A stretch of 32,000 bases of DNA, from the NCBI GenBank assembly GCA_030149205.1, contig JASBSB010000004.1, forward strand, positions 1 through 32,000, in the 5' to 3' direction. A model generated the notes under the pieces. It had not been told where the DNA came from. It was given only the letters and a program-made list of their open reading frames with translations, and did not search any database. The position numbers and the translations under genes were made by a program. This document shows positions 15,355 through 29,726 of the stretch, piece by piece. The first letter of the stretch is position 1. Every line of letters begins with the position of its first letter. Source of the stretch: Candidatus Heimdallarchaeota archaeon (GTDB taxonomy: Archaea; Asgardarchaeota; Heimdallarchaeia; Heimdallarchaeales; Kariarchaeaceae).

Positions 15355-16074
15355 CTACCCCCTCAGCTTCCACCGTACACGCCAGAACTCCACTGGTTCA
15401 TTTATCTCACCTTTACTTAGCATTTCAATCAATTCATAGTTTCTTTTGTTTATGAGCTGCTCCAGATAATTATAGGCTGGAAGAAACAAAAATCCTAAGG
15501 AAGCAGCTAATTGAAGAATTAGATTAAATCCTGATGTGTTACTTTTATTAAAAGTTAACATGAGAAGAACAAGGACAGGATACGAAATCAACACAGTAAT
15601 AATTAGATTCACAACTATTGAGTAATTTAAGGTAAGGGAATTATGATGGTCTTTAAGGTAACCCTCGTGATTTTTGTTTGAGAGATACTTAAACATATTC
15701 CTTGGATAAATTGTGAAAAATATGAAATGATTAATTGCTATTAAGGTGTTTGTCAAAACGAAAATTCCAGGTGTTAAAGCCTCTTTATAAAATAAAAGAT
15801 ACAAAAAATACTGAAGCATGAGCAAACCAGTTGGAATGTATATTTCAAACAAAAGGGAGCGAAAGACTCCATGCTCCAAGAACCATGAACGCTTTCTTAT
15901 CATGAACACAAGCTGAAAAATAAACACCAATGACTTTATCCCCAGAAAAATCCCATAGAGAACCAACATCATCAGCCATCTTGGGAAAATCAAGAAGGGT
16001 TGAAGGAGAATAATCTCAATTCCAATAAACCCAATGTACAGATACTCTATAAATTCAACTACTTTGTTATTCAT
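15355..16074 (-). CDS. Multi-pass membrane protein, partner/immunity-like family I (ends RWKLRG)
   Basis: About 6 TM segments; paralog of 18953..19669 (shared FEHLY/IEYLY, HG+.RSL and EQ.INKR..EFWR.RW.LRG); SD AGGAG upstream. Confidence 0.75.
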   Translation of the reverse strand: MNNKVVEFIEYLYIGFIGIEIILLQPFLIFPRWLMMLVLYGIFLGIKSLVFIFQLVFMIRKRSWFLEHGVFRSLLFEIYIPTGLLMLQYFLYLLFYKEALTPGIFVLTNTLIAINHFIFFTIYPRNMFKYLSNKNHEGYLKDHHNSLTLNYSIVVNLIITVLISYPVLVLLMLTFNKSNTSGFNLILQLAASLGFLFLPAYNYLEQLINKRNYELIEMLSKGEINEPVEFWRVRWKLRG

Positions 16075-16089
16075 TTTATTCTCCTATGT

Positions 16090-16185
16090 TTAATTTATTA
16101 ATTGACCAGCCATTAGTGCTAGAATAATGATTAGCACAGGTGTAAGGATGAGTTGAAGTTTTGCAAATTGGTGTACTTTATCCAT
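16090..16185 (-). pseudogene. Short hydrophobic C-terminal remnant (31 codons), possible tip fragment
   Basis: Reads MDKVHQFAKLQLILTPVLIIILALMAGQLIN*, with the stop 15 nt before the family I start; an in-frame stop lies 10 codons upstream. Confidence 0.3.
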
Positions 16186-16316
16186 TCCTTTTCTTGAACC
16201 AGTTGGACTCTCTTAGAATTCCCCTATTTAATGATTAAGCAAAATAACTAAACATTACTTTAATCAGAGCAAAAGACATAAAAAAACTGAAACGATAAAA
16301 ACTGATCATGATTTTT

Positions 16317-16868
16317 CTAAATCAGTTTAAAATAGCTTAAATATCGATTTAACTCTGAAATAAAGACAATGACAACCCCAAGTACGTGAATCACAAACCA
16401 AGACCTTAGTAATAATTGGCTGTAAGATACTGTCAAATCTTCTTTTTGAGGCAGTGGTCTTTCTAGACAAAGTGGAATTATATAAAATGGAAGTTTAAAT
16501 AATGGGATTGTTATTAACTCTTCAAGTTGTCCATCGGTGAGCGAATCTAAATAAAAGTTCAACATATATTCTATGAGCAAAAATAAAAAAAATGCAGTTA
16601 AAGGAAAAATTGGAACATAATAAGAGGAAAAGAATGAAAGGGCCAGAAGGACTAAACCAAGAGTATGAAAAATGAATTGGTTTTTCTTATTTGTGACCTC
16701 TTTAACATATTTCAAATACGGTTTGTACTGATTTTTTAAAAAGCGATTCGAGAAAAGGTACCTAAATAAATTTAACAGCTGAAAAGCTATATTTAGGAGA
16801 ATACTAAATAACATAGTGCTTACAATTATAATAATAAGCGAACCAAGCAAATAGAGATTCATTTCCAA
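16317..16868 (-). CDS. Membrane protein, candidate partner of module A
   Basis: About 4 TM segments; starts 6 nt after the stop of the module A tip (16875). Confidence 0.65.
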   Translation of the reverse strand: MEMNLYLLGSLIIIIVSTMLFSILLNIAFQLLNLFRYLFSNRFLKNQYKPYLKYVKEVTNKKNQFIFHTLGLVLLALSFFSSYYVPIFPLTAFFLFLLIEYMLNFYLDSLTDGQLEELITIPLFKLPFYIIPLCLERPLPQKEDLTVSYSQLLLRSWFVIHVLGVVIVFISELNRYLSYFKLI

Positions 16869-16874
16869 ATGTAC

Positions 16875-17326
16875 CTATAATCGCTTCATTGAGCCTGCCC
16901 AAAGCCACATGTTCATAAAGTGGTAAAATGTTAATGTACCGGCGTAAAGGAACTTAAGAACATCCATTTGATAGTCACTCGCAGATTCCTTGAAAAAAGA
17001 TATTCTACTCACAAAATTGATTATGTGATTTAAAATTTTACCAAATACTGCTATTGTCATGTAATTCAACCGAATCTTCACCCCGTCAATAGTGAAGCAG
17101 CCCTGATGGTCTGCAAGGCTGTAGTACTCATTGTCCTAAGCTCGCTGACAAAGTCCACCAGGGTCACCTCAGGCTTGCCAATGATGCTCATCACCCACAG
17201 GTTCTGCAACCAGCTCTCTTGGTAGATTAAATTTGAAATCAGTTGATTTTTAGGTGTTGTGGGAATTGTAATAAAAGCCTTCTGATGAGTCCAGGCATTC
17301 ACGTATCTAATATCCATTAATCTCAT
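16875..17326 (-). pseudogene. Orphan module A: leader + core-homology block + short tip, frameshifted
   Basis: 17078..17326 encodes WLQNLWVMSIIGKPEVTLVDFVSE..ALQTI. A 1-bp deletion near 17101-17104 relative to the main gene (gcagccc-tgatgg vs gccgtccttgatgg) shifts TIDGVK and the tip into ORF 16875..17081. Confidence 0.8.
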
Positions 17327-17342
17327 TTAAGTTTATCGCACA
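17300..17342 (-). promoter_or_regulatory. Cassette-head motif copy A
   Basis: TGTGCGATAAACTTAA + 24 nt + GTG. Confidence 0.65.
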
Positions 17343-17607
17343 AAACTCATCTTTTAACATAACTTCTAATCTTGCTTTATTATCCTCAGTCTCAAAAACT
17401 ACTTGTAAGTCATCCTATATGTCTGAACTATAACATTTCTTACCAAAATTAATGTTTCAATATTTTTTTTCATCATTAACTCTAATCATACATCGGTTAT
17501 AGAAATTAAAATTCCTTAACTTGCATATAACAATTTTCAAGCTTTAAAAAGTTCATTCAAAATTATTACTAATTAAAATCATTTTCATCTTTAAGATTTT
17601 AAGATAT

Positions 17608-18729
17608 TTAAACTGGACCGATTAGTAGAACATTTTTATCTTCTCGAACTTTTCTATATAATTTACAAGTTAGGTCTTTATCCTCTTCAGTGAATGAAGT
17701 TGAAAGTACTTCAGCAAAATTATAAATATTAGGGTCTTCTTTAAAGCCTAATAAAAATGACTTGTCTAAGGAGTTGGTGTTTGTTAAAAGAATAACTGTA
17801 AATTTAGTAGTAACAAGAAAATCAGGATCGATAAATTCAATTGGATTATGGCGTAGATCAAGGAAATTTACATCACAATTGATTAAATCTGTCGAAAATA
17901 ATTTTGTAATTTGATTATGACGTAAATCTAGTAGAAAGGCTGAAGCATCAAAGAAATTTGTCAATGACTGGATCCCAAGGTCATTAAAATTTAAAATTGG
18001 AATCGCTCTGTATTTCTGAATACCAAATATTTTAATCATTGCAACAATTAATCTATTAATAAAATGAACGTAAGCAAATGGTAATAAAATTTTTTGAGGC
18101 TCTAAATTTTTGGATGTCTTTGCTTTCAGAATTACATCTTGAACTCTTGCACTCGAAAATTTTGCAATGTTTTGATACTGTAGATATTTGCGCATATCTT
18201 GATTGTTAAGTAAATTACCCCTCCAGTATATTATCAAGATAAAATAAAATAAAATTGCTGGAACATAAAAATAAATTACCCCTCTTCTAAAATCAAGGAA
18301 GATTGACTCATAAGAACTATTGGCAAGTTCATTTAAGGTGTATATTCCTAAAATACCTGATGCACAAAAACCTATGAATGTCCAATAAGAATTTAGTATT
18401 GTTTTAAATATACCTAAATTAATAAAAAGGAACACAAAAATCCCAATAAGCCCCAGTATTAATAATCCGCCTAAAATCAATTGATAAACGATTGCTCCTA
18501 GATATAAGAGAAATTTTTCCCTCCGATGTATAAATAAAATTAAACCTAGTTGTCCTACAACCATCATAAGAACCGAAGTTATGAAGTAATTTAGCTTATT
18601 ATCAATTTTTAGCTGGGGATAATCTTCCGTGATATATACCAGTTTTGGAGAGCTAATTTTCCGCAGCATTTCCTCAAAAACTAAATATTGGCGGATTTTG
18701 TCCAAATCTTTTTGTGATGCGTTTATCAT
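17608..18729 (-). CDS. Membrane protein with C-terminal leucine-rich repeats
   Basis: About 5 N-terminal TM segments; LNFNDLGIQSL, LDLRHNQITKL and LDLRHNPIEFI (LxLxxNxI); SD AGGAGG upstream. Confidence 0.75.
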   Translation of the reverse strand: MINASQKDLDKIRQYLVFEEMLRKISSPKLVYITEDYPQLKIDNKLNYFITSVLMMVVGQLGLILFIHRREKFLLYLGAIVYQLILGGLLILGLIGIFVFLFINLGIFKTILNSYWTFIGFCASGILGIYTLNELANSSYESIFLDFRRGVIYFYVPAILFYFILIIYWRGNLLNNQDMRKYLQYQNIAKFSSARVQDVILKAKTSKNLEPQKILLPFAYVHFINRLIVAMIKIFGIQKYRAIPILNFNDLGIQSLTNFFDASAFLLDLRHNQITKLFSTDLINCDVNFLDLRHNPIEFIDPDFLVTTKFTVILLTNTNSLDKSFLLGFKEDPNIYNFAEVLSTSFTEEDKDLTCKLYRKVREDKNVLLIGPV

Positions 18730-18830
18730 ATGCGAAATCTTACCTCCTAGTTAAAATACAGTGGTTAGAAAGGATGAGTAAAGTCTCATAAGAGGTCTGG
18801 TGCATACAGGTTGCTGATCTATTCATAAGG

Positions 18831-19068
18831 AAAAGTACAAGACCATTAAAGCTTCCCTTTATTTTAATTTATCCTACAGGAAGTGATCGTTGGAACAGAA
18901 CATTCTTCGTGGAGAGGTTTCCTCATAGCTTTATTACAATCAACATCCCTCGTCAGCCTCTTAGGCTCCACCTTGCTCGCCAGAATTCCATGGGTTCACT
19001 CTCCTCCCCACTGCTTAGCTTTTCCATCAGTTTGTAGTATCTTTTGTTTATGACCTGCTCCCGATAAT
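18831..19068. repeat. 238-bp direct repeat, copy 1 (partner at 22000..22237)
   Basis: Ungapped alignment; covers the last ~38 codons of a family I gene plus ~120 bp of downstream sequence. Confidence 0.9.
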
Positions 19069-19669
19069 TTAAAGTAGGTATGTAATAAATTCCTAGAGAT
19101 CCAACTAATTCAAGAATGGTGTTAACTGATAAGAAAATAAACTTCGAATTTACAATAATCATAACAATTACGGCAACATGAGCGATCAGAATAGCTGGAA
19201 TGAGGGCATATATTTTATCTAGGTCAATTTTTAATCTAAATTGATAGTCCTTGATATATTCCTCATATTTTTTGTTTAAGAGATAATAATAGAAGGTTTT
19301 TGGATACATACTAAAAAACATGAATAGATTAATTGTGACCATCAGATTAAGCAAAATGTAAACTCCGGTAATGACACGGAAATCTAAGTACAACAAATAC
19401 AAAATTAGCTGAAAAATCAATAATCCTGTCGGGATGAATACATCTGTAAAAAGGGAGCGAAGAATTCCATGGTTTTGTAACCAATGCCGTCGACCAAATA
19501 TAAACCGTAATTGAGAGAAGAATATTATAGCTTTAATTCCAAAAATGAGACCATAAGGAACAAAGAAAAGATTGGGAATAAGTCCTAGAAAAAGTAGTAC
19601 TATGATCTCAATCCCTAATTCTAGGGTATACAAGTGTTCAAAATATAAAATTTGCTTTAATTTGATCAA
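18953..19669 (-). CDS. Multi-pass membrane protein, partner/immunity-like family I (ends RWSLRG)
   Basis: Paralog of 15355..16074; SD AAGGTG upstream of a TTG start. Confidence 0.75.
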   Translation of the reverse strand: MIKLKQILYFEHLYTLELGIEIIVLLFLGLIPNLFFVPYGLIFGIKAIIFFSQLRFIFGRRHWLQNHGILRSLFTDVFIPTGLLIFQLILYLLYLDFRVITGVYILLNLMVTINLFMFFSMYPKTFYYYLLNKKYEEYIKDYQFRLKIDLDKIYALIPAILIAHVAVIVMIIVNSKFIFLSVNTILELVGSLGIYYIPTLNYREQVINKRYYKLMEKLSSGEESEPMEFWRARWSLRG

Positions 19670-19712
19670 ATAAACACCTTTAGATCTATCATTTAATCAA
19701 CAACAAGTCCAT

Positions 19713-19755
19713 CACATATCTGTTATACATTAAGATTACTTAAGTTTATCGCACA
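19713..19755 (-). promoter_or_regulatory. Cassette-head motif copy E (core and tip absent)
   Basis: TGTGCGATAAACTTAA + 24 nt + GTG; overlaps the stop codon of 19746..20417; leads into only 8 codons and then the family I gene. Confidence 0.65.
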
Positions 19756-20417
19756 TTCAATTTTGCATCCTCATTCTTGTGTCCCTCTGTCACAGCTTCC
19801 TTCTTCTTTTGTCTATATCCAAGGATTATGAGTTGTGTCCTACGGAGAAGATACATGATGAATGGCCACCAAAGTAGTGAGTCAATAGTAATTAAATGTA
19901 ACCACCCAGAGATTTGTAGTCTTTGACAGGTTCCATCATAGCAAACATAAAACACAACCAAAACTGGAAGAATGAGAGAGAGAGGAAGAAATATTTTATC
20001 TATGGGGTCTTCAGGTGTTATATCCGCGGTAAAAAACTCAGATCCGTACCAGATATAAAACATTGGGTTCGCCAAAATAAAAAAACTTGTACCAAATATT
20101 ATGTCGACGGCTGCTAGTCCTAAAATAAGTAAATAGAGATACCTTAGAGAAAACAGGGTTGAAGCATCTCTAAGTTCTGATTTAAACAACACATAATATA
20201 GACCAGATACAAAAACTAGAAGAGGTAACAAATAATAAATAAACACAATTGAGAACCAAATCCAAACATTTGATCTAGATAGAGCGTTGATTATTTGATT
20301 GAAATTTACCTGAGAATTAATCAGAGGGTGTTTCCAAAAGTATGAAATCATAACTGCTAGGTAAGGCAAACTTATACCTTGAAATACTGAAAGGGTTTCA
20401 TATTCCTTATCTTTCAT
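19746..20417 (-). CDS. Multi-pass membrane protein (partner-like)
   Basis: About 5 TM segments, charged C-terminal tail, SD AGGAG upstream. Confidence 0.7.
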   Translation of the reverse strand: MKDKEYETLSVFQGISLPYLAVMISYFWKHPLINSQVNFNQIINALSRSNVWIWFSIVFIYYLLPLLVFVSGLYYVLFKSELRDASTLFSLRYLYLLILGLAAVDIIFGTSFFILANPMFYIWYGSEFFTADITPEDPIDKIFLPLSLILPVLVVFYVCYDGTCQRLQISGWLHLITIDSLLWWPFIMYLLRRTQLIILGYRQKKKEAVTEGHKNEDAKLNVR

Positions 20418-20429
20418 GCTGTATATCTC

Positions 20430-20675
20430 CTAAAAAAGTGAGGCGAAAGACCTTTGTAGTAGCAGAGGAGCAAATACAAGGGAATAGAAGAGTATTGACA
20501 TTCTTGTTTGAACTACCTTTTTTCCAATCATGACATCTACTCCATTGACTACACCGATAGTCAGGGCTATGAAAAGCACCTTAATGTAGTTGTGAAGCAC
20601 CTGTAAATTTAGTGTTTGCGGTGAGATTAGACCAACAAAGGCCTTATTTAACTCATTTGTTGTTTTGATTTTCAT
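20430..20675 (-). CDS. 81-aa hydrophobic ORF, possible tip remnant
   Basis: Two hydrophobic segments; stops 12 nt before the next gene, with the SD overlapping its stop. Confidence 0.35.
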   Translation of the reverse strand: MKIKTTNELNKAFVGLISPQTLNLQVLHNYIKVLFIALTIGVVNGVDVMIGKKVVQTRMSILFYSLVFAPLLLQRSFASLF

Positions 20676-20738
20676 TAAATTTCTTTCTCAGTTGATATTA
20701 TTTATTATTTCATCTACTTGAAAATGATTACTATTCAT

Positions 20739-21866
20739 TTAGTACAATTTGTGATTTGTGAGGTTATATTTGTATATCCCTCCATTGGAACCAACAATAA
20801 CTACCTCATGGCTTGAAAATTGGTGCATCTGTATTGGAACAAAATCTGTTTTGATACACAAAGTGTTATGTTCCGTCTGTTCAATTATTTCCCCTTCTGA
20901 GCATGATAGCAATCCAGAATCTATGACCAGCATATCATATACCATTGTACTATGAGACATCGGTAACTCTGAGGTCACTCCTCCCTCTATCTTATAAAGT
21001 GTCCCCTCCTCACTTCCCAGATAAATAGTGTCATCTTTAGATACTAAGGAATTGATATAGCAGTTAAACAAGAATCTTTCTGTGCTAAAATCAGATGTAT
21101 CGATAACAAACAACTCTGATTGCGTCTGTGAGTCATTGAGGAGAAATGTTTTGTTTTCATACTGTGTCAATCGCTCCACAGTTATTGGCAGTTTAACAGT
21201 GTGAAGAATTGCAAAGGTTCTTGATGAAATGTAATAGATGAATTCCCCTCTCCCAATTACTAAGAGCTCACCCTCCTCATGAAAGTCAAAAGGAAATTCT
21301 GGTGCTACTGGCAATACATATTCTTGCAGAACATTGAAGTTTGAATCATACAAAAGCGCTTGACCAGAGCTCATCAAAATTAAAACTTTTGCAGTTTTTA
21401 ATGGAAGAGCGTAGAACACGTCCTGGTTGATTTCCTTTGGTTTCTTAAAATTATTGAAATCAAAGACACCTAGTGTGTTATTTTTGTTGTAAATCAACAG
21501 GAATTTGTCACCCATAAATGGTTCAAGATGTTCAATGTCTGGAAATCTCAGAAAAATTGGTTCTTTGTCATACTCTAGATCTTGTATCTTAATCTGGAAA
21601 TTACTGTAAATTACGACCTTGCTTCCAATTATTACTGAATCTTTCACAAAAAATTGAGGTGAAGTCACACGAGAGCTCCCAATAAAAAGTGGTATAACAA
21701 ACCAGATAAAGGCTATTCCAGTCAAAATCGCAATTAAAAGACCAAAACCCACAAGAACCTCCTGTTGTATCCCAATTGTTTGAAAAACCATAAAAGAAAG
21801 GTATAAGGACAAAATTAGAAAAACAAGAAAATAAGAAAAGCTGGCACTAAAATATTTATGATTCAT
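20739..21866 (-). CDS. Two-TM-anchored beta-propeller (WD40-like) protein
   Basis: Two N-terminal TM helices followed by ~40-aa beta-repeats, e.g. YINSLVSKDDTIYLGSEEGTLYKI, HSTMVYDMLV and VVIVGSNGGIYKYNL. Confidence 0.7.
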   Translation of the reverse strand: MNHKYFSASFSYFLVFLILSLYLSFMVFQTIGIQQEVLVGFGLLIAILTGIAFIWFVIPLFIGSSRVTSPQFFVKDSVIIGSKVVIYSNFQIKIQDLEYDKEPIFLRFPDIEHLEPFMGDKFLLIYNKNNTLGVFDFNNFKKPKEINQDVFYALPLKTAKVLILMSSGQALLYDSNFNVLQEYVLPVAPEFPFDFHEEGELLVIGRGEFIYYISSRTFAILHTVKLPITVERLTQYENKTFLLNDSQTQSELFVIDTSDFSTERFLFNCYINSLVSKDDTIYLGSEEGTLYKIEGGVTSELPMSHSTMVYDMLVIDSGLLSCSEGEIIEQTEHNTLCIKTDFVPIQMHQFSSHEVVIVGSNGGIYKYNLTNHKLY

Positions 21867-21872
21867 TGTGTT

Positions 21873-21995
21873 TTACAACCTCAAATTATAGTTTGTCAAA
21901 TGAAATATGGCAAATATTAATGAAATAACAGCCATAGCAACATTAAATTTTAGAGCTGCGTCTAAATAATGTATTAACCCACTTTGAACAATCAT
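21873..21995 (-). pseudogene. 40-codon hydrophobic C-terminal remnant, possible tip fragment
   Basis: Reads MIVQSGLIHYLDAALKFNVAMAVISLIFAIFHLTNYNLRL*; the stop lies 6 nt before the propeller gene start. Confidence 0.35.
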
Positions 21996-21999
21996 GAGT

Positions 22000-22237
22000 A
22001 AAAGTACAAGACCATTAAGGTTTCCCGTTATTTAAATTTATCCTACAGAAAGTGATCGGTAGAACAGAACATTCATCGTGGAGAGATTTCCACAGAGCTC
22101 TACTACAATCAACATCCTGCGTCAGCCCCTTAAGCTCCACCGTGCTTGCCAGAACTCCACGTGTTCACTCTCCTCCCCACAGTTTAGCTTTTCCATTCAT
22201 TTGTAGAATCTTTTGTTTATGAGCTGATCCAGATAAT
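22000..22237. repeat. 238-bp direct repeat, copy 2
   Basis: Aligns without gaps to 18831..19068. Confidence 0.9.
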
Positions 22238-22244
22238 ATTGTAA
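22122..22244 (-). pseudogene. 3' remnant of a family I gene
   Basis: Reads LQYYLDQLINKRFYK*MEKLNCGEESEHVEFWQARWSLRG*, with an internal TGA at 22197-22199; the 5' part of the gene is missing. Confidence 0.85.
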
Positions 22245-22440
22245 TAGTAGAAAGAATGAACCACGAAAAGAAGAATAGAAAGATGTTTCCCTTTAGCAAG
22301 TGTTCAAGTGTCTTTTCTGAGTCGAGGGGTTAATTTCTCGTAGTAAAAATATTATTGGTTTAACCTCAGAATTTGAAGCTCACAGAATTTTCATTAAAGA
22401 TCATGATTAATTGGTGAGTTTAATGATTCGAAATAACTTC

Positions 22441-23628
22441 TTAAATAAAAATATCTCCACCCAGGTTCATGCCACCAAAATATTTTATGACCTTATTGTC
22501 ATCATTATTTGTGATGGTTCTAATTTTAGATAATGATTCCTTGGTTATTGAATTAAGCAACAAGTTAATACTCCAATAATTTCTTTCTATCAAAAACCCG
22601 AAGAACATTGAAGTAATGACCACAGTTCCTAATATCACCATTGAAATAAATTGGATTGCATTAATCTCGAATTGATTATTAAATAACTGAGACAGTTGGA
22701 GAAAAATATTTAGTGCCAGAAAAAGCCCAATCCAAACATAAGACTTCTCATAAATATATCGATCAACCCACAACTGGTCTAAGAGAGACAATTTTCTAAA
22801 ATTAAATCTTTTAATAACCCTGTTGCCAATAATAACTCCAAGAATTAAAGATGAAAGATATAAAAAGGCTAAAAGAGCCGATGCAGCAGAGGAACCAAAA
22901 AACAAAGTCAATGCAGGCTGAAATTCCCAAAGAATATAATTGATTGGTAAAACAAAAATCACAACAATTCCTGAAAATAATCCAAACAACTTAGTTTGAG
23001 AGAATATTATGGGTTTGTAAGGTATATAAGAAAACTTGGAAAATGATGAAATAGCCATCAGAATAAAGAAAGAGGCAACTGGCACTAAAAACAGGCTGTA
23101 AAGGAGGATTATGATGATAATGCCAATTTGTGACCCAGTTGGATCAATAATCACAGAAAATCCCATCAAAACTAAAATTTGTAAGAAGAGGTTAATTATT
23201 GTGAATTTCAATGAACGACGATATAAGTGTTGGCTTTCAGAGAATTCAACTCCTCTTGGATTTATCAAAGCAATTGTCTCTTGCACAAAATTCAAAAATT
23301 TAAATAGTGATGGTCTAGTCTTTGCATTCAATGTTTGAACATCTTTTTCATCAAGAATTTTTCTTAAATTATCGGTTAGTTCTGGAAAAAATTTGTTCCA
23401 ATTTTTAAAAACTAACATTCCAACAAAGTCTGAAATTATAGGGAATAAAAATAACGTCCCAATAATCGCTATCATAACCTCTATCATTAGATACTTGTGT
23501 AGGAGATACAAATTATCTATTCCCAATGAGAAGGAGAAAGTAAAGAAAATTACCCAAAAAAAGATGGTTTGATAAATTATCAAAGTTCGAATAAATCTTT
23601 TCTTTCTTTGGCTTAAATTATGTTTCAT
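22441..23628 (-). CDS. Large multi-pass membrane protein (~9 TM), candidate partner of module C
   Basis: Starts 15 nt after the module C stop with SD GGGAG; F/I/L-rich composition. Confidence 0.75.
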   Translation of the reverse strand: MKHNLSQRKKRFIRTLIIYQTIFFWVIFFTFSFSLGIDNLYLLHKYLMIEVMIAIIGTLFLFPIISDFVGMLVFKNWNKFFPELTDNLRKILDEKDVQTLNAKTRPSLFKFLNFVQETIALINPRGVEFSESQHLYRRSLKFTIINLFLQILVLMGFSVIIDPTGSQIGIIIIILLYSLFLVPVASFFILMAISSFSKFSYIPYKPIIFSQTKLFGLFSGIVVIFVLPINYILWEFQPALTLFFGSSAASALLAFLYLSSLILGVIIGNRVIKRFNFRKLSLLDQLWVDRYIYEKSYVWIGLFLALNIFLQLSQLFNNQFEINAIQFISMVILGTVVITSMFFGFLIERNYWSINLLLNSITKESLSKIRTITNNDDNKVIKYFGGMNLGGDIFI

Positions 23629-23643
23629 TTTAAACTCCCTACA

Positions 23644-24585
23644 TTAAACCAACGCTTGAATTGCAAACCACACACCCATGGCTAGATGGATGACACTCAA
23701 CAGAAGGAAAGGTACTGCATTGGCTAGCAATCTATGAGTCCGAGACCTTTGAACTTTTGATGCGGCACCATTCGTTATGGGGAATGACCCCGCCACCGTT
23801 CCAACAGTAAATCCAGCAATTAATCCTATGACTCCTGTATTAAAGAACAAGTCACCAACAATGTTGAAATCCCCGTGATTTAGAGGTAATAATGATGTAA
23901 ACAATCCAGTGATAAATTGACCTATGGCTAACAACGCAAAGATGGCAGTCATTTCTTTTGTTAATGCTCCCTTTACAATGAGAAACTCTGTGAACTTGCT
24001 TAACCCAGGTGCAAATCGTGTGAACTTTCCTAACTCAGTAGTTTTTGCGTTAAATCTATAATTACGGTAAGAAGGTCCAGCAAGCAAATATCTCATCGCA
24101 AGATATGAAACAACTGCTAGAAATATTGAAAAATGCATATTTGCAAATCTGATTGCCAGCCTCTTACGATCCTCCGCAGGCTGAGAGTTCACATGGATGG
24201 CCTCCCCTATGAGGATGGCAACATTTGCAAGATGTGTCACCATTGCTAAAACAAGATAATAGAATGTGTAAAACATCATGTATGTATAAGACTGAATCAA
24301 GATATTCCCTGAGGAATCCACAGTCACACTTACTGAAATTATTGTTTCAACAATCTGTAGCAGAGCAAGTATTGCTGAGCGATACACATTCATCATTTCT
24401 TCTGCAATAAGCAGGGGTATTTTGTTGACGATGAACTCCCCAGCCACCTTGACCACTTCGATGGTGACGCTGTCCTTAATGCCCTGCTGGTTAACACATG
24501 TGAAACTGAAGCTGCTGTGTGTTCCAATTCCAAAGGATTTTTGGTGAAGGCAATGGTACACATACCTGATATACATTAAAACCAT
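23644..24585 (-). CDS. Orphan module C: leader + partial core block + hydrophobic tip with a glycine zipper
   Basis: FSFTCVNQQGIKDSVTIEVVKVAGEFIVNKI aligns to the main gene's FTFTVRALQTIKDGVTVDGVKEAGEFIANNI; tip contains GLIAGFTVGTVAG. Alternative start is the GTG at 24561. Confidence 0.8.
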   Translation of the reverse strand: MVLMYIRYVYHCLHQKSFGIGTHSSFSFTCVNQQGIKDSVTIEVVKVAGEFIVNKIPLLIAEEMMNVYRSAILALLQIVETIISVSVTVDSSGNILIQSYTYMMFYTFYYLVLAMVTHLANVAILIGEAIHVNSQPAEDRKRLAIRFANMHFSIFLAVVSYLAMRYLLAGPSYRNYRFNAKTTELGKFTRFAPGLSKFTEFLIVKGALTKEMTAIFALLAIGQFITGLFTSLLPLNHGDFNIVGDLFFNTGVIGLIAGFTVGTVAGSFPITNGAASKVQRSRTHRLLANAVPFLLLSVIHLAMGVWFAIQALV

Positions 24586-24601
24586 TTAAGTTTATCGCAC
24601 A
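24559..24601 (-). promoter_or_regulatory. Cassette-head motif copy C
   Basis: TGTGCGATAAACTTAA + 24 nt + GTG. Confidence 0.65.
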
Positions 24602-24722
24602 TAAATCATGTACCTAAACTTCCCGCTCAAGAAAATTACTGATGGATCTTTTAATTTACCATATCTTTGCTCCTTGGATTCTGCTTAATCTTCAATCAGT
24701 TTCACCGAACAGGTTAACACAT

Positions 24723-25490
24723 CTATGTCTCTATAGGAGTGGAATTCTTGAGGGAAGGAAAGTCAATTTTAAGCATAAACCAATCAATTATAACTAAATT
24801 AATTAACACAAATGTCTTCGCAACCACATGGCCATTTACCAATGGAATTGAGTTTGTGATGTTTTCAAAAAATGTGAAAAATAGCAAATTTTCAAGGTAA
24901 TTCAATGTCAGAAAACCAAGGATGATGAATTTCCACATTGTAAGATCTGCCAATACTATATTCTTGATCATATTTTCAAAGTATAGCCCCATAATCAGAA
25001 CCACCCCTAATATTCTTAAGAGATTCCAGTCACCAGCAAAGAAACTCAAAAAATACAATGAGATTAAGGTGATTATCCTAATAAAGTAGAAACCAATGCT
25101 ACTTTTCTCAAGGGTCTTAGGAAATAAGTTAAATTCAAACTTAAATTTCGGGTCATCTGAATTGGAATCTGTTAATAAAAAGGGAAATATGATCAGTAAC
25201 ATTGAAATTAAGCTTTCTGATGTTATACTACTGATTAAGGCGATTACACTTAGGACATAATAAACCAGGTAATTTTCCTTAGGATCAGGTTCAATTATCC
25301 CTCGAAGTGATATCAGACTAATTATTTTGGAGATAACCAGAAAAATTACCAATCCTCCAAGAAGACCAAAACCCTCCCAGCTTGAAAATGACACATTATT
25401 AAGGAGCTGAAAATAAAGCACTATTGGAAACAGCAGCACCATTAGCTGCCTCAGAACAAAATTTACAACAGGGAGGTGTTTTCGTTTCAT
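24723..25490 (-). CDS. Multi-pass membrane protein (partner-like)
   Basis: About 7 TM segments; its ATG overlaps the module B stop (ATGA, 25487-25490). Confidence 0.7.
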   Translation of the reverse strand: MKRKHLPVVNFVLRQLMVLLFPIVLYFQLLNNVSFSSWEGFGLLGGLVIFLVISKIISLISLRGIIEPDPKENYLVYYVLSVIALISSITSESLISMLLIIFPFLLTDSNSDDPKFKFEFNLFPKTLEKSSIGFYFIRIITLISLYFLSFFAGDWNLLRILGVVLIMGLYFENMIKNIVLADLTMWKFIILGFLTLNYLENLLFFTFFENITNSIPLVNGHVVAKTFVLINLVIIDWFMLKIDFPSLKNSTPIET

Positions 25491-25726
25491 ATTCTAACTC
25501 CGTCGACGAAGCTGGTGACGCCCCTTTTGATCTCTGTGAGTGCCTTGTCTGTCACCCGAAACACCTCAGAGACAAAGTCAAACAGGGTCGCTCCAGGCCT
25601 GCCAATGATGCTCATCACGGTGTTCCACAGGTTCTGCTGCCAGCTTTTCAGGGACGGTTCATTCAAAGTTAGAACTCGGAACTTTGAATTAAATTCTAAT
25701 TTTAGCTGTGCAATGTTGATATTCAC
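25487..25726 (-). pseudogene. Orphan module B: core-homology block with no tip
   Basis: Reads SWQQNLWNTVMSIIGRPGATLFDFVSEVFRVTDKALTEIKRGVTSFVDGVRI*; 56% GC over 25501-25660; carries two 6-nt in-frame insertions relative to the main gene. Confidence 0.8.
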
Positions 25727-25938
25727 AAAGTTAAATAATTTTCTTTATTTATAAATTTACTCCACAAATGACAGAATTGAAATTCTATTGATTGGAATTA
25801 TATCATTATTTGAGATGACCTTTTGTCCCTGTCACGTATTTGAGTGTTATAAGTCACTTGTGTAAATACTACCCCTATTTTTAACTAACCATTTTCAAAT
25901 ATCTATAAACTTTGAAATCTTATCTGTAGATTGAAAAA

Positions 25939-26679
25939 TTAAAACCAACCATTTGATGTAATTAATAATAGTCTAAACAAAAAAATCGAAGCAGCAATAA
26001 ACAAACTAAGGTTTATTATTACTAGCCCTGGTAGATAAAGCATTAAAAGCGATTTAATAGAGTTTTCACTTCCTTGGTTATCTGGAGGATTGAAGTAATA
26101 AAGAAATCTAGGAAGTAAACCCAATGTAATTCCAGACACAAATATCAATAAGGTGATCATCTGTTCAACACCTCCGAGATAGACATCTATAATACGTATA
26201 GGGGCTAATACTATCGCAATTCCAATGAACAGGAGATCTAACTTCTTAGAGGTAGCAGGTACAAATTTGATAGTCCATTTCAACAATCTCTTAATCTGCT
26301 TGGAAGGTACAGAAAGACCACAGAAAGTTAATATTTGCTCGCTTTGATTAAACTCTCTGTTCAGCTCATCCGAAAGGTTTAGAATGACACCAAGCATCCC
26401 AAACCCAAGTGCCATAAAAAAAATATAACTTCTTGTTAGTCCAGATTTTACAGAAGGGGATAGCAGGCCAATTATAATTACAGTTAATCCACCACCAGCC
26501 ACAAAAAGGATAAAAATTGCTAAATTAAAAACCGTATATCTCTTAAATGAGGTGCCTTCAGCTATAAAGGAAAGAAAATGAGAGTCCCCGAATTTCAATA
26601 AATTCCTAGGGGGGGGTGATTCTGAGGCACTCAATCTACTAATACCACCCACTTTCAGTACCTGCCAGCATTTGAACAA
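25939..26679 (-). CDS. Multi-pass membrane protein paralogous to the tip of module D
   Basis: See the alignment in findings (DVY..G...I.....V.GI.LG.LP and terminal GW[YF]). An alternative TTG start at 26634 lies just after the module D stop. Confidence 0.75.
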   Translation of the reverse strand: MFKCWQVLKVGGISRLSASESPPPRNLLKFGDSHFLSFIAEGTSFKRYTVFNLAIFILFVAGGGLTVIIIGLLSPSVKSGLTRSYIFFMALGFGMLGVILNLSDELNREFNQSEQILTFCGLSVPSKQIKRLLKWTIKFVPATSKKLDLLFIGIAIVLAPIRIIDVYLGGVEQMITLLIFVSGITLGLLPRFLYYFNPPDNQGSENSIKSLLMLYLPGLVIINLSLFIAASIFLFRLLLITSNGWF

Positions 26680-27772
26680 GGTAATAAATCGCCAAACCTA
26701 TGAAAACCATGCTCAAACTGAAGAATAAAGGGATATAAACTTTAAAAACCCCTTTTGTAGGCGTACCTACACCAGATCCAATCTTCATGAATAATGATGG
26801 AAGCTTCCCTAAAAGAATGCCTATTACAGCAACTGCTACATCAATTGCACCGTCTGGTCCCTTTTCATACACATCAAGTAAGTTGGGAGCCACTGATAAA
26901 AATCCAAGTAATGCAAGGATATAAATTGTATATCTACTTAAACCACCCAAAGAGTATGCCGTAACCCTTATCAGTTTTTCTAAGTGACCGATATTTGAGA
27001 ATAATTTGCTAACAAACCCAATGTGATTTTTAGTCTCATAATTCCTTTTCATTTCATGGGCTAATTCAAAGGTTGATTGTAACAAAGCTAATCCAAGTGT
27101 CAGATAGAGAAGCAATTTTCTGAAAACAACTATTTCTTTTGCTTTCTTTGTTGTTCCAGTAAGCTTTCCCTCAATAACCATGGCAACAATTACAGCAGCC
27201 AGCATAGCACCGTTAACTATCAAATAAGATTGAAGAGAAGGTGTTCGTCCTAAGGTTGATAAAAGAATTGAAAAGAGCAACATAAACCCTCCCCAAACCC
27301 CAATTAATGCAAGTGTATCTCCTAGAGCATCTGAATCGACTGGCTTTAGGGAAAGTGTTTCAAATCTTACTTGAAGACTTGAGATTGGGCTTCCTATCTT
27401 TAAAATCTTCTGGTTAAAAATAAAAAAGAAATTTTGGATGTCAAAGGTAATAGTCAGATTTAGTAAATTTTTGTTCTGCTTGGAGATGATAATTGAATCT
27501 CCTAGTCTTGTGATTAAAGTCCTATCCTGAAAACTTTTAATGGAAAAAATAGCAAAGAGTGTGCTTAGAATGATTTCTTTCAAAGATAAATGAAGTGCTA
27601 ATACTATTGCTTTCATCACATTTTCCCCAGCCGCATTGATTCCATCGACAGTGATGCTATCATGGATGGAATATTCGCTAATTTTGGTAAAAATGAACTG
27701 GTATGAACTCCCTAAAGTAAACACTTGCTGATGGGCACAGGGATACACAAACTGATTATTCCTTACTATCAT
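26639..27772 (-). CDS. Orphan module D: leader + diverged core block + ~6-TM tip
   Basis: IHDSITVDGINAAGENV aligns to IKDGVTVDGVKEAGEFI of the main gene. Alternative start is the GTG at 27748. Confidence 0.8.
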   Translation of the reverse strand: MIVRNNQFVYPCAHQQVFTLGSSYQFIFTKISEYSIHDSITVDGINAAGENVMKAIVLALHLSLKEIILSTLFAIFSIKSFQDRTLITRLGDSIIISKQNKNLLNLTITFDIQNFFFIFNQKILKIGSPISSLQVRFETLSLKPVDSDALGDTLALIGVWGGFMLLFSILLSTLGRTPSLQSYLIVNGAMLAAVIVAMVIEGKLTGTTKKAKEIVVFRKLLLYLTLGLALLQSTFELAHEMKRNYETKNHIGFVSKLFSNIGHLEKLIRVTAYSLGGLSRYTIYILALLGFLSVAPNLLDVYEKGPDGAIDVAVAVIGILLGKLPSLFMKIGSGVGTPTKGVFKVYIPLFFSLSMVFIGLAIYYLVQMLAGTESGWY

Positions 27773-27788
27773 TTAAGTTTATCGTACA
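27746..27788 (-). promoter_or_regulatory. Cassette-head motif copy D
   Basis: TGTACGATAAACTTAA + 24 nt + GTG. Confidence 0.65.
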
Positions 27789-27961
27789 TCCTTCATCAAA
27801 TCCTTTTCCTTGAGGTCATATAAATTTCTCATAATTAAAATTTTTGTACATTCCATTAGCGATTGAATTACAGAGCTCCAAAACCCAAAATTCAAGGTAA
27901 TACAGGTAATGAATGTTTGCACATAGGGAAGTCTGAAAGTGAAAATAATGATAACAGACAA
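27779..27961 (-). CDS. 60-aa ORF, probable gene remnant
   Basis: Ends VR* inside the cassette-head motif; starts at a TTG with no clear SD. Confidence 0.25.
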   Translation of the reverse strand: MSVIIIFTFRLPYVQTFITCITLNFGFWSSVIQSLMECTKILIMRNLYDLKEKDLMKDVR

Positions 27962-28017
27962 TAAAAACTCACAAGCTCAGACACATTTCCTTAGAATAGC
28001 CTTTATTCAACCAAAGT

Positions 28018-28740
28018 TCAGTTAGCCGGTGATCTCTTTTGAATTTCTTTTAGAAGTTTTTTTCTGTAATTACTCTGTTTGAAACGTTTCCCTGATACAA
28101 AGGGAATGAATGCGGTCAAATGATCTGGCCAGGCATCTAACATATCCTCAGTTATGTAAAGGTTCAATGAAGAGGGTAGCAGAGCAATTATTACGCATAT
28201 CACAAAAAAAAATCCCTGTATTCCTTCAAAGGGTAGGAAACCGTATGTGTTGCCAATGATAAAAAAGTTCCACCAGATGATTGAGGTCTCTGAAAATTGT
28301 GATAAAATGAGAGCAGGGTTAGACCTCTGATTTGAAAGAGGTGCTAACTTAAAGAGGATATATATAAATGCAAGATAAATAAGTAAATAATCAAAAAATA
28401 CAACAAGGAACAAAATCCTTAGATTAAAGAAAACTGAATAGATGATTGTGCCTACAATTACAACATTCATAAGTAACCATGAACTAAAGAATGTAAATTT
28501 ACTTTTGAAGGATGGTTGCTCAATAAGTTGGTAAACAGCAAATAACCGTCTCTGTGGCAAGAAATGAATGATTGTGAGCAAAATCAGCTCTGCTACCGAA
28601 ATAAGTGAAGTAACCCAAGATTCAAAATTAACACCTTGAAAGATAAATATGAAATTGATCACTAGGAGAAGTATAGCTACTACTATTAAGAGCAAAAGTG
28701 TCTTTATTCCAATTAATGGGGTTTCAAGTTCTTGTTTCAT
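28018..28740 (-). CDS. Multi-pass membrane protein, partner/immunity-like family II
   Basis: Paralog of 28987..29718 (FQG, IHF.PQRR, SQ.SE and AWPD.LTA..PF..GK); SD AGGTGA upstream. Confidence 0.75.
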   Translation of the reverse strand: MKQELETPLIGIKTLLLLIVVAILLLVINFIFIFQGVNFESWVTSLISVAELILLTIIHFLPQRRLFAVYQLIEQPSFKSKFTFFSSWLLMNVVIVGTIIYSVFFNLRILFLVVFFDYLLIYLAFIYILFKLAPLSNQRSNPALILSQFSETSIIWWNFFIIGNTYGFLPFEGIQGFFFVICVIIALLPSSLNLYITEDMLDAWPDHLTAFIPFVSGKRFKQSNYRKKLLKEIQKRSPAN

Positions 28741-28753
28741 TAGATCACCTAAA

Positions 28754-28912
28754 CTAATCTATTCCCTGATTTGATAGAATAAAGAATTCTAATACAAATA
28801 TACTCATGGTCTGCAGATTAATATAAATTGACCTGGAGGTATTGCATACTCCAATACCAAATGATTCTTGAAGGACACAACAGTACACAGAACTATTATC
28901 CAATGGCATCAT
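28754..28912 (-). pseudogene. Collapsed module F: leader peptide only (52 codons, not in the ORF track)
   Basis: Reads MMPLDNSSVYCCVLQESFGIGVCNTSRSIYINLQTMSIF..., compared with module C MVLMYIRYVYHCLHQKSFGIGTHSSFSFTCVNQQGI. Confidence 0.7.
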
Positions 28913-28928
28913 ATAAATTTATCTCATA
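28886..28928 (-). promoter_or_regulatory. Cassette-head motif copy F (diverged)
   Basis: TATGAGATAAATTTATATG matches 15/19 positions of the consensus, with GTG at the same 24-nt offset. Confidence 0.55.
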
Positions 28929-28986
28929 AATTTCACAATTCTGTTCAACTCAGATGAGAAGGAGCAAAGTATCAATGTCGAAGAGA

Positions 28987-29718
28987 CTAGTGATTCTCAA
29001 TAAATCGCGAAAATTTATCAACCTCAATTAAATTTGCCTCTCTCTTTAGCTCCTTTCCTGTGTGAAATGGTAACAATGCAGTAAGTTTGTCTGGCCATGC
29101 TTTCATCATATCTTTTGACAGCCAGATTCTTCCAAGCAAGGCTGCAAGTATAAAGACAAACAAATAGAGAAGAAACACATAAACTGACAAAGTTCTTTCT
29201 AGATAATTTTTAAATATATCTCGAAATGTGAGACTTAAGATACTGAAATTTACCAGATGAAGAAATACTTCACTAAGCTGTGAAAATGAAATAAGTAATT
29301 TAAATTTAAGTGGTCTTATAGAACTCAGAGTCCAAAGTACAAAGAGAAGATAACCACTTAAAAACATTGGGAAATTAAATAAATAAAGTAGTGTGGAACC
29401 ACTGATTATTGAATAGAAAAGCACCATAACAAATAACATATTAGGCAGAGCCCAAAAAGTGACAAAAAGTATCTTATGTTGTTTATCCTTCTTCAGGTTG
29501 GTGAAAAGTTGATAAAGAATAATAACACGTCTTTGTGGAAAAAAATGAATGAATACCAAAATGCCTATGACTATTAATGAAATTATACTCTCGAACAAAT
29601 TTTTGAAAGATATTCCCTGAAACACAAAAATTACTACAAAGATAAAAAAAAGGGTTATAGATGCAAATTCTAAAAATATCCTAGTGCCATTCATTCTTGA
29701 GTCTGAGGTATTAGACAT
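28987..29718 (-). CDS. Multi-pass membrane protein, partner/immunity-like family II
   Basis: Paralog of 28018..28740; starts 8 nt after the stop of 29727..30191; SD AGGTGA. Confidence 0.75.
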   Translation of the reverse strand: MSNTSDSRMNGTRIFLEFASITLFFIFVVIFVFQGISFKNLFESIISLIVIGILVFIHFFPQRRVIILYQLFTNLKKDKQHKILFVTFWALPNMLFVMVLFYSIISGSTLLYLFNFPMFLSGYLLFVLWTLSSIRPLKFKLLISFSQLSEVFLHLVNFSILSLTFRDIFKNYLERTLSVYVFLLYLFVFILAALLGRIWLSKDMMKAWPDKLTALLPFHTGKELKREANLIEVDKFSRFIENH

Positions 29719-29726
29719 TTTATCAC

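What the first reader, a model, noticed from the sequence alone, without database searches (positions are those of the whole stretch)
17300..28928. A 43-bp cassette-head motif: BRE/TATA-like box, invariant GTG and a conserved YxCxHQ leader
Seen: five copies of TGTGCGATAAACTTAA(ATG) at 17342, 19755, 24601, 27788 and 28928 (diverged), each with GTG exactly 24 nt after the TATA-like pentamer, the same spacing as host genes. Four continue into VNAWTHQKAF, VYHCLHQKSF, VYPCAHQQVF and VYCCVLQESF, with synonymous changes (TAC/TAT, TGC/TGT, CAT/CAC, CAG/CAA). This leader is not present in the visible part of the main gene. Inference: unlike classical silent orphans, these cassettes carry their own promoter and a translated Cys/His leader, so truncated tips and partners may be expressed independently. 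In E and F the core and tip are lost, leaving promoter plus partner gene. Alternatives: the in-frame ATG at the motif is the start, or the motif is a site-specific recombination site.
Basis: partly seen in the sequence, partly recalled or inferred. Interest (0 to 1): 0.8.

Follow-up and report, generated by a model that had tools for sequence, protein, structure and literature searches.

The report
Self-promoted cassette heads, Asgard tail-gene array
Each spare "tail plus partner" gene cassette in this Asgard archaeon's toxin/immunity-like array begins with the same 70-base block, which looks exactly like one of the host's own promoters placed to start the message at an invariant GTG start codon, so the cassettes are probably expressed on their own rather than lying silent.

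Summary
The motif lies on the minus strand in five type-A copies in the window (17342, 19755, 24601, 27788, 28928). A sixth starts the supposed "main gene" at 32118, just outside the window. Two variant type-B copies (18878, 22047) were missed. The genome has 15 type-A and 5 type-B heads, all in two arrays on one contig.

The conserved block runs from -40 to +30 around an invariant GTG. CTTAAA starts at -29 from the GTG, which is the modal TATA position of host leaderless genes. A host-trained upstream matrix peaks exactly at the GTG in 13 of 15 heads and scores at random level at the embedded ATG.

Codons after the GTG (YxCxHQxSF) vary at the third position. The 24 bases before it do not vary like coding sequence. 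Partner genes carry Shine-Dalgarno sites.

The best reading is a BRE/TATA promoter, a leaderless GTG start and a translated leader, which makes each cassette its own operon. This rests on sequence analysis only; no RNA data exist.

Another genus has a different head with the same geometry. Relatives keep giant lectin-type main genes; this assembly has none. Recombination appears to use a GC-rich junction about 90 nt downstream, not the head. Earlier reports of this scan on adjacent DNA also called the cassettes self-promoted.

The parts
17273..17342 (-). Type-A head: BRE/TATA (GATAAA CTTAAAT), spacer, GTG at 17300-17302, degenerate leader VNAWTHQKAF
   Evidence: host-matrix score 5.2, best offset 0
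17078..17302 (-). 74-aa stub of the family (leader + WLQNLW..GKPEVTL core, tail lost)
15355..17081 (-). Downstream multi-TM genes of this unit (16875-17081, 16317-16868, 15355-16074; the last is partner family 'EFWRxRWxLRG')
18782..18900 (-). Type-B head (TGTAGGATAAATTAAAAT ... GTAC, 12 nt, ATG at 18824-18826) with 28-aa leader ORF MNRSATCMHQTSYE... (18740-18826)
17608..18729 (-). 373-aa TM/LRR-like gene served by AGGAGGT Shine-Dalgarno site directly after the 28-aa leader ORF
19713..19755 (-). Type-A head, promoter part only (embedded ATG mutated to AGT, GTG at 19713-19715 kept, leader lost)
18953..19669 (-). Partner gene (family 'EFWRARWSLRG', 6 TM) with AGGTG Shine-Dalgarno site and TTG start, 44 nt after the head's GTG
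21953..22069 (-). Type-B head, promoter part plus unrelated 40-aa ORF (ATG 21993-21995); precedes genes 20739-21866, 20430-20675, 19746-20417
24532..24601 (-). Type-A head, GTG at 24559-24561, leader VYHCLHQKSF
23644..24561 (-). 305-aa headed tail gene (6 TM) read from the GTG
22441..23628 (-). 395-aa 8-TM partner gene, 15 nt after the tail gene
24400..24504 (-). GC-rich junction (..GGCATTAAGGACAGCGTCACCATCGAAGTGGTCAAGGTGGCTGGGGAGTTC.., 49% GC against 33% for the genome): constant/variable boundary
24723..25726 (-). Headless stub (25487-25726, WQQNLW..VTSFVDGVRI*) cut at the GC-rich junction and abutting a 7-TM partner gene (24723-25490)
27719..27788 (-). Type-A head, GTG at 27746-27748, leader VYPCAHQQVF
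25939..27748 (-). 369-aa headed tail gene (26639-27748, 7 TM) and overlapping TM partner gene (25939-26679)
28859..28928 (-). Type-A head, diverged (TATGAGATAAATTTATATG), GTG at 28886-28888, leader VYCCVLQESF, 44-aa remnant ORF to 28754
28018..28740 (-). Partner gene with AGGTGATC Shine-Dalgarno site 4 nt before its ATG
30930..32000 (-).

Best explanation
The 43-bp motif is the upstream part of a 70-nt 'expression head' (-40 to +30). It consists of a canonical archaeal core promoter, transcription starting at or within a base of an invariant GTG, and a translated N-terminal leader.

- The promoter has an A-rich BRE (GATAAA, -35 to -30), a TATA box (CTTAAAT, -29 to -23), an A/T element at -11 to -9, and a T(-1)/G(+1) initiator.
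- The GTG is read as the start codon of a leaderless mRNA.
- The leader is (M)YxCxHQxS[F/Y].

The head is fused to 5'-truncated copies of the C-terminal part of a giant lectin-type surface protein. Each copy has a different hydrophobic tail. It is followed by Shine-Dalgarno-led membrane-protein partner genes that look like immunity genes. Every cassette is therefore its own small operon. Where the tail has been deleted, the head still drives the partner gene.

Shown here: the sequence anatomy, the match to host promoter geometry, the coding-type constraint after the GTG, the non-coding-type constraint before it, and the operon layout.

Inferred: that transcription really starts there, that the GUG is used, that the partners are immunity proteins, and what the Cys/His leader does.
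For: - The block has sharp edges. Majority-base counts are 11-14 of 14 from -40 to +29 and at background level outside.
- For 683 host ATG-start genes with confident starts, YTTAWA starts peak at -29 (23 against about 3 background). For 182 GTG-start genes, 51 TATA-like hexamers start at -31 to -27 against 6.6 expected. Host leaderless promoters read AAAA(-34 to -31)-YTTAWAW-...-T-rich(-3 to -1), and a third of them start with GTG.
- A matrix trained on host genes outside the arrays scores the heads 4.5-7.9 at the GTG (2.5 for the 98959 copy), where the random 99th percentile is 3.7. The GTG is the best offset within +/-40 nt for 13 of 15 heads, and the other two are off by 1. Anchored at the embedded ATG, scores are -12 to -0.8.
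- GTG is present in 15 of 15 heads although it makes up 18% of valine codons. The neighbouring Tyr and Cys third positions split about 50:50.
- In the spacer, the third 'codon' position is the most conserved in 4 of 7 triplets. The ATG is lost in 3 heads, and an in-frame TAA follows it in a fourth head that has an intact 370-aa gene.
- Type-B heads have a different spacer but again 29 nt from TTTAAA to the G of GTAC, followed by a 12-nt leader and an ATG.
- Partner genes have AGGTG or AGGAGG 4-11 nt before their start codon. This fits the archaeal rule of a leaderless first gene and RBS-led internal genes, with the promoter box about 26 nt from the start (PMC6028130).
- Genus G007 has 10 heads with a different sequence: TTTATC, TTTATG or CTTAAC starts 30 nt before the ATG or GTG of an MG[FI]RIRxVDxLY leader, which is fused just before the W[VI]SALW core.
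Against: - No RNA run holds this DNA, so no transcription start site, peptide or expression level is known.
- In Haloferax volcanii, leaderless GUG starts are a minority (6%) and are tied to weak expression (PMC4983044).
- The embedded ATG is kept in 11 of 15 heads with an open frame, and gene callers usually chose it.
- The copies are paralogues in one genome, so counts overstate independence, and gene conversion could keep the block uniform.
- The conserved TGTGCG at -40 to -35 and several fixed spacer bases are not explained by the host consensus.
- The function of the leader is unknown.
Confidence: 0.75

Rival explanations
1. The ATG embedded in the motif (TTAAATG) is the true start codon. 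The motif would then be a 5' UTR or translation-initiation region, the promoter would lie further upstream, and the proteins would begin M[VRI]L[MI]xxRYVYxCxHQ.
For: The ATG is present and in frame in 11 of 15 heads. The ORF listing and most public gene calls start there. A few apparent synonymous pairs occur in the spacer (AGG/AGA, TTA/TTG, ATC/ATT).
Against: There is no conservation upstream of -40, and no consistent TATA 29 nt upstream of the ATG. Host-matrix scores at the ATG anchor are at random level. No Shine-Dalgarno site precedes it; the bases at -11 to -8 are GATA, against the host's G-rich signal. The ATG is mutated in three heads, and a stop follows it in an otherwise intact gene, while the GTG never changes. 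Spacer variation is not three-periodic. Seven stop-free AT-rich codons are expected by chance in about 60% of copies.
Confidence: 0.1
2. The block is mainly a recombination substrate: a site-specific recombination site, or a homology patch for gene conversion and cassette shuffling. Its resemblance to a promoter would be incidental.
For: The block is a 70-nt repeat of high identity present at every cassette boundary, in direct orientation within an array and inverted between the two arrays. Subgroups share longer flanks, which shows that duplication has occurred.
Against: No integrase, recombinase or transposase domain was found in the array genes scanned. Contig joints in the source and related metagenomes fall in the core and GC-rich junction, not at heads. 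The constant/variable boundary and two deletion end-points lie at a separate GC-rich element about 90-130 nt downstream. This model does not explain the exact -29 spacing, the invariant GTG, or the same geometry arising from unrelated sequence in genus G007.
Confidence: 0.07
3. The heads are merely inherited from one recently amplified ancestral gene, and the cassettes are decaying pseudogenes. Conservation would reflect youth, not function.
For: Many members are truncated (82, 52, 123, 124, 144 and 167 aa) or are stubs. This assembly has no giant main gene.
Against: The flanks and the x positions of the leader are saturated with changes while the promoter bases and the Y, C, H, Q and F codons are kept, with third-position turnover. 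The only amino-acid changes at those positions are in the two shortest remnants, 17302 and 28888. Promoter-only heads are retained in front of intact partner genes.
Confidence: 0.08

Closest known systems
Orphan cdiA-CT/cdiI and rhs-CT/rhsI modules of bacterial contact-dependent inhibition and Rhs loci (Poole et al. 2011, PMC3150448)
   Same: Tandem arrays lie downstream of a large surface-protein gene. Each module is a 5'-truncated copy that keeps a short conserved junction, a variable C-terminal tail and its own small partner gene. Many tails are degraded while the partners stay intact.
   Different: The bacterial orphans generally lack translation-initiation signals and are co-transcribed from the main promoter (PMC3150448). 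Here each module has its own core promoter, start codon and conserved leader. The domains are unrelated and have no Pfam match. The tails and partners are polytopic membrane proteins. The organism is an Asgard archaeon, and no full-length main gene is in this assembly.
Polymorphic toxin systems as defined by Zhang, de Souza, Anantharaman, Iyer and Aravind 2012 (PMC3482391)
   Same: Relatives have a giant secreted N-terminal part (signal peptide, Laminin_G_3 lectin domains). There is a conserved pre-tail region, hypervariable C-termini, adjacent immunity-like genes and spare cassettes.
   Different: None of the catalogued trafficking, releasing-peptidase or toxin domains was detected. Toxicity and immunity are untested. 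The self-promoted heads are not part of that definition.
Archaeal leaderless core promoters (BRE/TATA about 26 nt before the start codon; GeneMarkS-2 group D, PMC6028130; Haloferax volcanii dRNA-seq, PMC4983044)
   Same: An A-rich BRE, a TATA box, an A/T-rich -10 element and a pyrimidine/purine initiator are present at the host's modal spacing. The downstream genes in each operon are RBS-led.
   Different: This is a 20-copy, near-identical promoter with an extra conserved TGTGCG upstream and a fixed GTG start, attached to truncated gene copies rather than to a single-copy gene.
Hypervariable Ig-domain gene module of Thermococcales (Makarova et al. 2021, PMC8416519)
   Same: It is another archaeal locus type built around a large surface protein with variable downstream genes, proposed to act in conflict or self/non-self recognition. 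I know it from the title and abstract only.
   Different: The proteins are different, and the abstract mentions no repeated promoter and leader head. I did not compare it in detail.

Membership tests
Archaeal BRE/TATA core promoter driving a leaderless mRNA | TATA box centred about 26 nt upstream of the transcription start/start codon, at the host's own spacing | tested here: met
   CTTAAA starts at -29 from the GTG in all type-A heads. The host peak is at -29 for ATG-start genes and at -29 to -27 for GTG-start genes.
Archaeal BRE/TATA core promoter driving a leaderless mRNA | Purine/A-rich BRE directly upstream of the TATA box; A/T-rich element near -10; pyrimidine(-1)/purine(+1) initiator | tested here: met
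   GATAAA lies at -35 to -30, ATA at -11 to -9 (13-14 of 14 copies), and T at -1 (13 of 14) before the G. This matches the host profile.
Archaeal BRE/TATA core promoter driving a leaderless mRNA | Mapped transcript 5' end at the start codon; TBP/TFB binding | not testable with these tools
   No RNA run is listed for this DNA. Binding needs bench work.
Polymorphic toxin system (Zhang et al. 2012) | Large N-terminal trafficking/surface part in a full-length gene | tested here: inconclusive
   It is present in relatives: G003 has a gene of more than 2508 aa with a signal peptide and Laminin_G_3, G011 has one of more than 1184 aa, and P0004 is 939 aa. It was not found in this 93.5%-complete assembly. 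The longest member, P0001, is 614 aa and 5'-truncated.
Polymorphic toxin system (Zhang et al. 2012) | Conserved junction followed by hypervariable C-terminal domains, with spare cassettes | tested here: met
   There are 17 members with a shared N-terminal 70-100 aa and a GC-rich junction, and unrelated or mosaic tails.
Polymorphic toxin system (Zhang et al. 2012) | C-terminal domain is toxic and the adjacent gene gives specific immunity | not testable with these tools
   No known toxin or immunity family matched. Tail type and partner family tend to co-occur, but that is only circumstantial.
Classical silent orphan cassette (CdiA-CT/Rhs-CT type) | Orphan tail fragment lacks its own promoter and translation-initiation signals | tested here: not met
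   Each cassette carries a host-type promoter and a start codon. The bacterial orphans lack these (PMC3150448).
Site-specific recombination site (att/attC-like) | Nearby recombinase gene, inverted-repeat core, rearrangement joints at the site | tested here: not met
   No recombinase domain was found in the array genes scanned. No joints lie at heads in the laid contigs. That is weak, because contigs cannot show rare events.

The most novel reading that the evidence does not exclude
The heads may be portable, lineage-specific 'expression modules' that convert spare tails of a giant surface protein into stand-alone proteins made without the carrier. The conserved Cys/His leader (YxCxHQxSF here, MG[FI]RIRxVDxLY in another genus) would act as a functional tag for membrane targeting, for docking onto a carrier, or for processing. 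[quoted passage not shown]
Probability: 0.2. Interest if true: 0.7.

Novelty: new variant of a known kind. Interest (0 to 1): 0.5.

Why it matters
Orphan toxin cassettes in bacteria are usually treated as silent spare parts that act only after recombination into the main gene. Here every cassette appears to carry a complete host-type promoter, a start codon and a selected leader peptide. A second genus has arrived at the same design with different sequence. This genome seems to keep only the self-promoted short forms.

If transcription is confirmed, three things follow. Orphan arrays in Asgard archaea would be expressed repertoires, at the least of partner (immunity-like) genes. The locus would provide about 20 natural replicates of one promoter for studying Asgard transcription and leaderless GUG initiation, for which I found no start-site data. 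It would also give a handle on cell-cell conflict or recognition in a lineage where that biology is essentially unknown.

Tried and rejected
- Pfam scans of tails, partners and flanking genes found no family for any tail or partner. An ESM Atlas look-up of P0001 found nothing above 0.75.
- In the RNA evidence search, no RNA holder was listed.
- I laid contigs of three DNA runs on 13000-32000. The joints reflect paralogous core and junction repeats, none lies at a head, and contigs cannot show rare rearrangements.
- The head DNA pattern was not found in same-genus genomes G001-G003, in G007 or in G011. It was not found in any fetched relative locus by nhmmer, nor in genome contigs or metagenome contigs.
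- A profile search of leader plus core against 1.84 billion representative proteins found the leader only in this genome's own proteins. Weak core hits went to tape-measure-like repeat proteins.
- A search for longer proteins carrying the 23644-24585 tail found none.
- The AlphaFold2 model of P0001 with a 10-row alignment had mean pLDDT 49. It is mostly helical with a small beta-meander and was too poor for a fold search, so none was run.
- The tail/partner complex prediction gave no verdict.
- A genome-wide screen for other multi-copy promoter-plus-start blocks found only this family.
- Oligo-T terminators upstream of the heads were not consistent.
- I considered homology between the leader and an internal segment of full-length relatives (P0004 'YITICHEWQSNPF'), judged by eye only, and dropped it as too weak.

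Full report
**Organism and setting**

The window is bases 1-32000 of contig C1 of a 3.3-Mb, 12-contig genome that is 93.5% complete. The genome encodes TBP and an archaeal 16S rRNA. Earlier notes of this scan place it in the Heimdall group of Asgard archaea. GC content is about 33%.

**Checking the observation**

TGTGCGATAAACTTAA occurs on the minus strand at 17342, 19755 and 24601 (exact) and at 27788 (1 mismatch). A looser match lies at 22047. That is 5 matches against 0.46 expected, and no shuffle of 100 reached 5. A profile built from the copies recovers the diverged 28928 copy at E=6.8e-15.

Genome-wide, 14 copies align without a single gap over 78 nt. A fifteenth, at 19755, matches the upstream half only. 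All lie on C1, at 17-57 kb on the minus strand and at 94-100 kb on the plus strand.

The conserved block has sharp edges. The majority base is shared by 11-14 of 14 copies from -40 to about +29, numbering from the G of an invariant GTG, and conservation drops to background outside. The leaders and synonymous changes it quoted are correct.

The open-ended 'main gene' at 30930-32000 is a 390-aa member (P0003). It begins MILRNNRFVYSCTHQESF... at a head at 32049-32118, about 100 nt beyond the window. It is therefore one more cassette.

The window also contains two heads of a second type (type B). These read TGTAGGATAAATTTAAAT, 23 nt, GTAC, 12 nt in all from that G, ATG, then MNRSATCMHQTSYE. There are five in the genome.
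- The one at about 18878 keeps a 28-aa leader ORF. It is followed by AGGAGGT and the ATG of the 373-aa LRR-like membrane gene at 17608-18729.
- The one at 22047 precedes genes 20739-21866, 20430-20675 and 19746-20417.

Together the heads divide 15-32 kb into eight units, each starting with a head.

**The gene family**

There are 17 members in the genome. They share an N-terminal 70-100 aa. Their tails are unrelated or mosaic and rich in transmembrane segments. Each is followed by multi-TM partner genes that fall into small families. None has a Pfam match.

The longest member, P0001 (614 aa, C1:55484-57325), aligns with a 939-aa metagenomic protein and a 494-aa MAG protein. It also aligns with the C-terminal region of giant genes in genomes of the same family. 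G003 has a gene of more than 2508 aa with a signal peptide and a Laminin_G_3 domain, and G011 has one of more than 1184 aa. Matches were found only in family f1: 5 of 11 other genomes there, and 0 of 49 in other families of the class that were searched.

The giant N-terminal part is not in this assembly. P0001 itself begins with a degenerate head: GGATAAACTTATATA, a stop codon in the spacer, CTG in place of GTG, and an ATG two codons later.

The heads join the conserved core at four different points: about 200 aa before WQQNLW, about 25 aa before it, directly at it, and about 35 aa after it at QTIKDGV.

A separate GC-rich element (45-56% GC) encodes ..QTIKDGVT(SF)VDGVKAAGEF... It marks the constant/variable boundary. 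It is also the end-point of two deletions that fuse a stub directly to a partner gene, at 25525 and 48706.

This layout matches polymorphic toxin/immunity loci with orphan cassettes (PMC3482391, PMC3150448). Toxicity and immunity remain inferences.

**Is the head a promoter with a GTG start?**

I derived the host's own rules from long ORFs whose start is unambiguous.
- Some host genes have a G-rich Shine-Dalgarno signal at -11 to -8. Others have a T-rich then A-rich signal at -29 to -22.
- Starts of YTTAWA peak at -29: 23 of 683 genes against about 3 per position.
- Among 182 genes whose first possible start is GTG, 51 TATA-like hexamers start at -31 to -27, against 6.6 expected.
- Host leaderless promoters read AAAA (-34 to -31), YTTAWAW, an A/T-rich -10 region and T-rich -3 to -1. 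A third of them start with GTG.

The head reads GATAAA (-35 to -30), CTTAAAT (-29 to -23), ATA (-11 to -9) and T(-1)G(+1). That is the same register.

I then trained a position matrix on host genes that lack a Shine-Dalgarno site, excluding both arrays and without conditioning on a TATA box.
- Anchored at the GTG, the heads score 4.5-7.9, and 2.5 for the most diverged copy. The random 99th percentile is 3.7, and the upper quartile of host starts is 4.7.
- The GTG is the best offset within +/-40 nt in 13 of 15 heads, and the other two are off by one base.
- Anchored at the embedded ATG, scores are -12 to -0.8, which is random level.

**Constraint pattern**

After the GTG the variation is three-periodic.
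- Tyr is TAC or TAT in about equal numbers, and Cys is TGC or TGT in about equal numbers.
- His is CAT 12 times and CAC once. Gln is CAG 12 times and CAA twice.
- The x codons are free.
- The only amino-acid changes at Y, C or H occur in the two shortest remnants, 17302 and 28888.

The leader is therefore translated and under selection.

The valine codon is GTG in all 15 heads, although GTG makes up 18% of valine codons in this genome. That fits a start codon or initiator rather than an ordinary valine.

Before the GTG the pattern is not coding-like.
- In 4 of 7 triplets the third position is the most conserved.
- The embedded ATG is ATA, TTG or AGT in three heads.
- An in-frame TAA follows the ATG in the head of an intact 370-aa gene.

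Type-B heads have a different spacer yet keep 29 nt from TTTAAA to the G of GTAC.

Partner genes carry AGGTG or AGGAGG 4-11 nt before their starts, often overlapping the stop of the headed gene. This is the arrangement described for archaea with leaderless first genes and RBS-led internal genes (PMC6028130).

**An independent replicate**

Genus G007, in the same family, has 10 cassette heads with unrelated sequence. A TTTATC, TTTATG or CTTAAC hexamer starts 30 nt before the ATG (GTG in one copy) of a conserved leader, MG[FI]RIRxVDxLYxLPxTI. The leader is fused just before the W[VI]SALW core. The G000-trained matrix peaks one base from that start in 7 of 9 testable copies.

Other relatives show classical orphans that simply keep about 100 aa of main-gene homology and have no such head.

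The G000 head itself was not found in any of the following:
- the same-genus genomes;
- the loci fetched from relatives;
- two public contig collections;
- 1.84 billion representative proteins, where only this genome's own products carry the leader.

**Rival readings**

- ATG start (about 0.1). Nothing conserved, no TATA box and no Shine-Dalgarno site serves the ATG, and the ATG is dispensable.
- Recombination site (about 0.07). No recombinase gene was found in the arrays, no contig joints fall at heads, and a different element marks the exchange point. The heads may still undergo gene conversion.
- Young pseudogene family (about 0.08). This is contradicted by third-position turnover with the amino acids preserved, and by promoter-only heads kept in front of intact partner genes.

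**What remains open**

- There is no transcript or peptide evidence.
- Leaderless GUG starts were a weakly expressed minority in Haloferax volcanii (PMC4983044), so expression may be low.
- The TGTGCG at -40 to -35 is conserved but is not part of the host consensus. It may be a binding site for a common regulator.
- The role of the Cys/His leader is unknown.
- The structure prediction was too poor to use.
- Whether a giant carrier gene exists in the missing 6.5% of the genome is unknown.

**Comparison and novelty**

The locus works like an orphan-cassette array of a polymorphic toxin system. It fails the 'silent orphan' criterion, because each cassette has its own promoter and start. I found no paper describing this family or such heads.

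Earlier reports of this scan on adjacent windows independently called the cassettes 'promoter-bearing' or 'self-promoted' and described the GC-rich junction. My tests agree with them. This report adds the following:
- the host-calibrated spacing test;
- the contrast between the GTG and ATG anchors;
- the type-B heads;
- the second-genus replicate.

I rate the finding a new variant of a known kind, of moderate interest.

Noticed in passing
window 13540-13700 and 13800-13930: An intergenic, purine-rich stretch (GC skew +0.30, AT skew +0.25) holds about five tandem copies of a roughly 34-nt unit (GTAGGAATTGAATAGACAATAAGTAGAATACT). A second repeated unit follows (GGAGTGTAACAA.TAGGGAGTGGAAGAGC.AAGGA). 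There is no Rfam or tRNA hit in the window.
   Followed up: partly
window 14136-15065 (-): A 309-aa protein carries two PARP/DNA-ligase-type zinc fingers (zf-PARP, E=4e-21) and nothing else recognisable. This domain is best known from eukaryotic nick sensors. The gene sits at the 3' edge of the cassette array.
   Followed up: no
C1:57686-58366 (+) and C1:101058-101336 (-), outside the window: A 226-aa gene with no Pfam match flanks array 1. A truncated homologue flanks array 2, with a shared C-terminus (..EVKQALQ[DE]LLNKI[ND]S). It could be a regulator or a relic of the duplication that made the second array.
   Followed up: no
window heads, positions -40 to -35 (e.g. 24596-24601): TGTGCG (TGTAGG in type B) lies just upstream of the BRE. 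It is conserved in 11-12 of 14 heads but carries almost no information in the host promoter profile, so it is a candidate site for a regulator shared by the whole array.
   Followed up: partly
L022 (ENA contig k141_366075) 8839-9723: In a metagenomic relative, a phage-integrase-family gene lies directly after the main gene and one classical orphan cassette. This hints that the locus can sit on or next to a mobile element there.
   Followed up: no
window 9982-10524 (-): A RusA-type Holliday-junction resolvase gene (E=3e-14) lies among metabolic genes upstream of the array. RusA is usually prophage-borne in bacteria.
   Followed up: no
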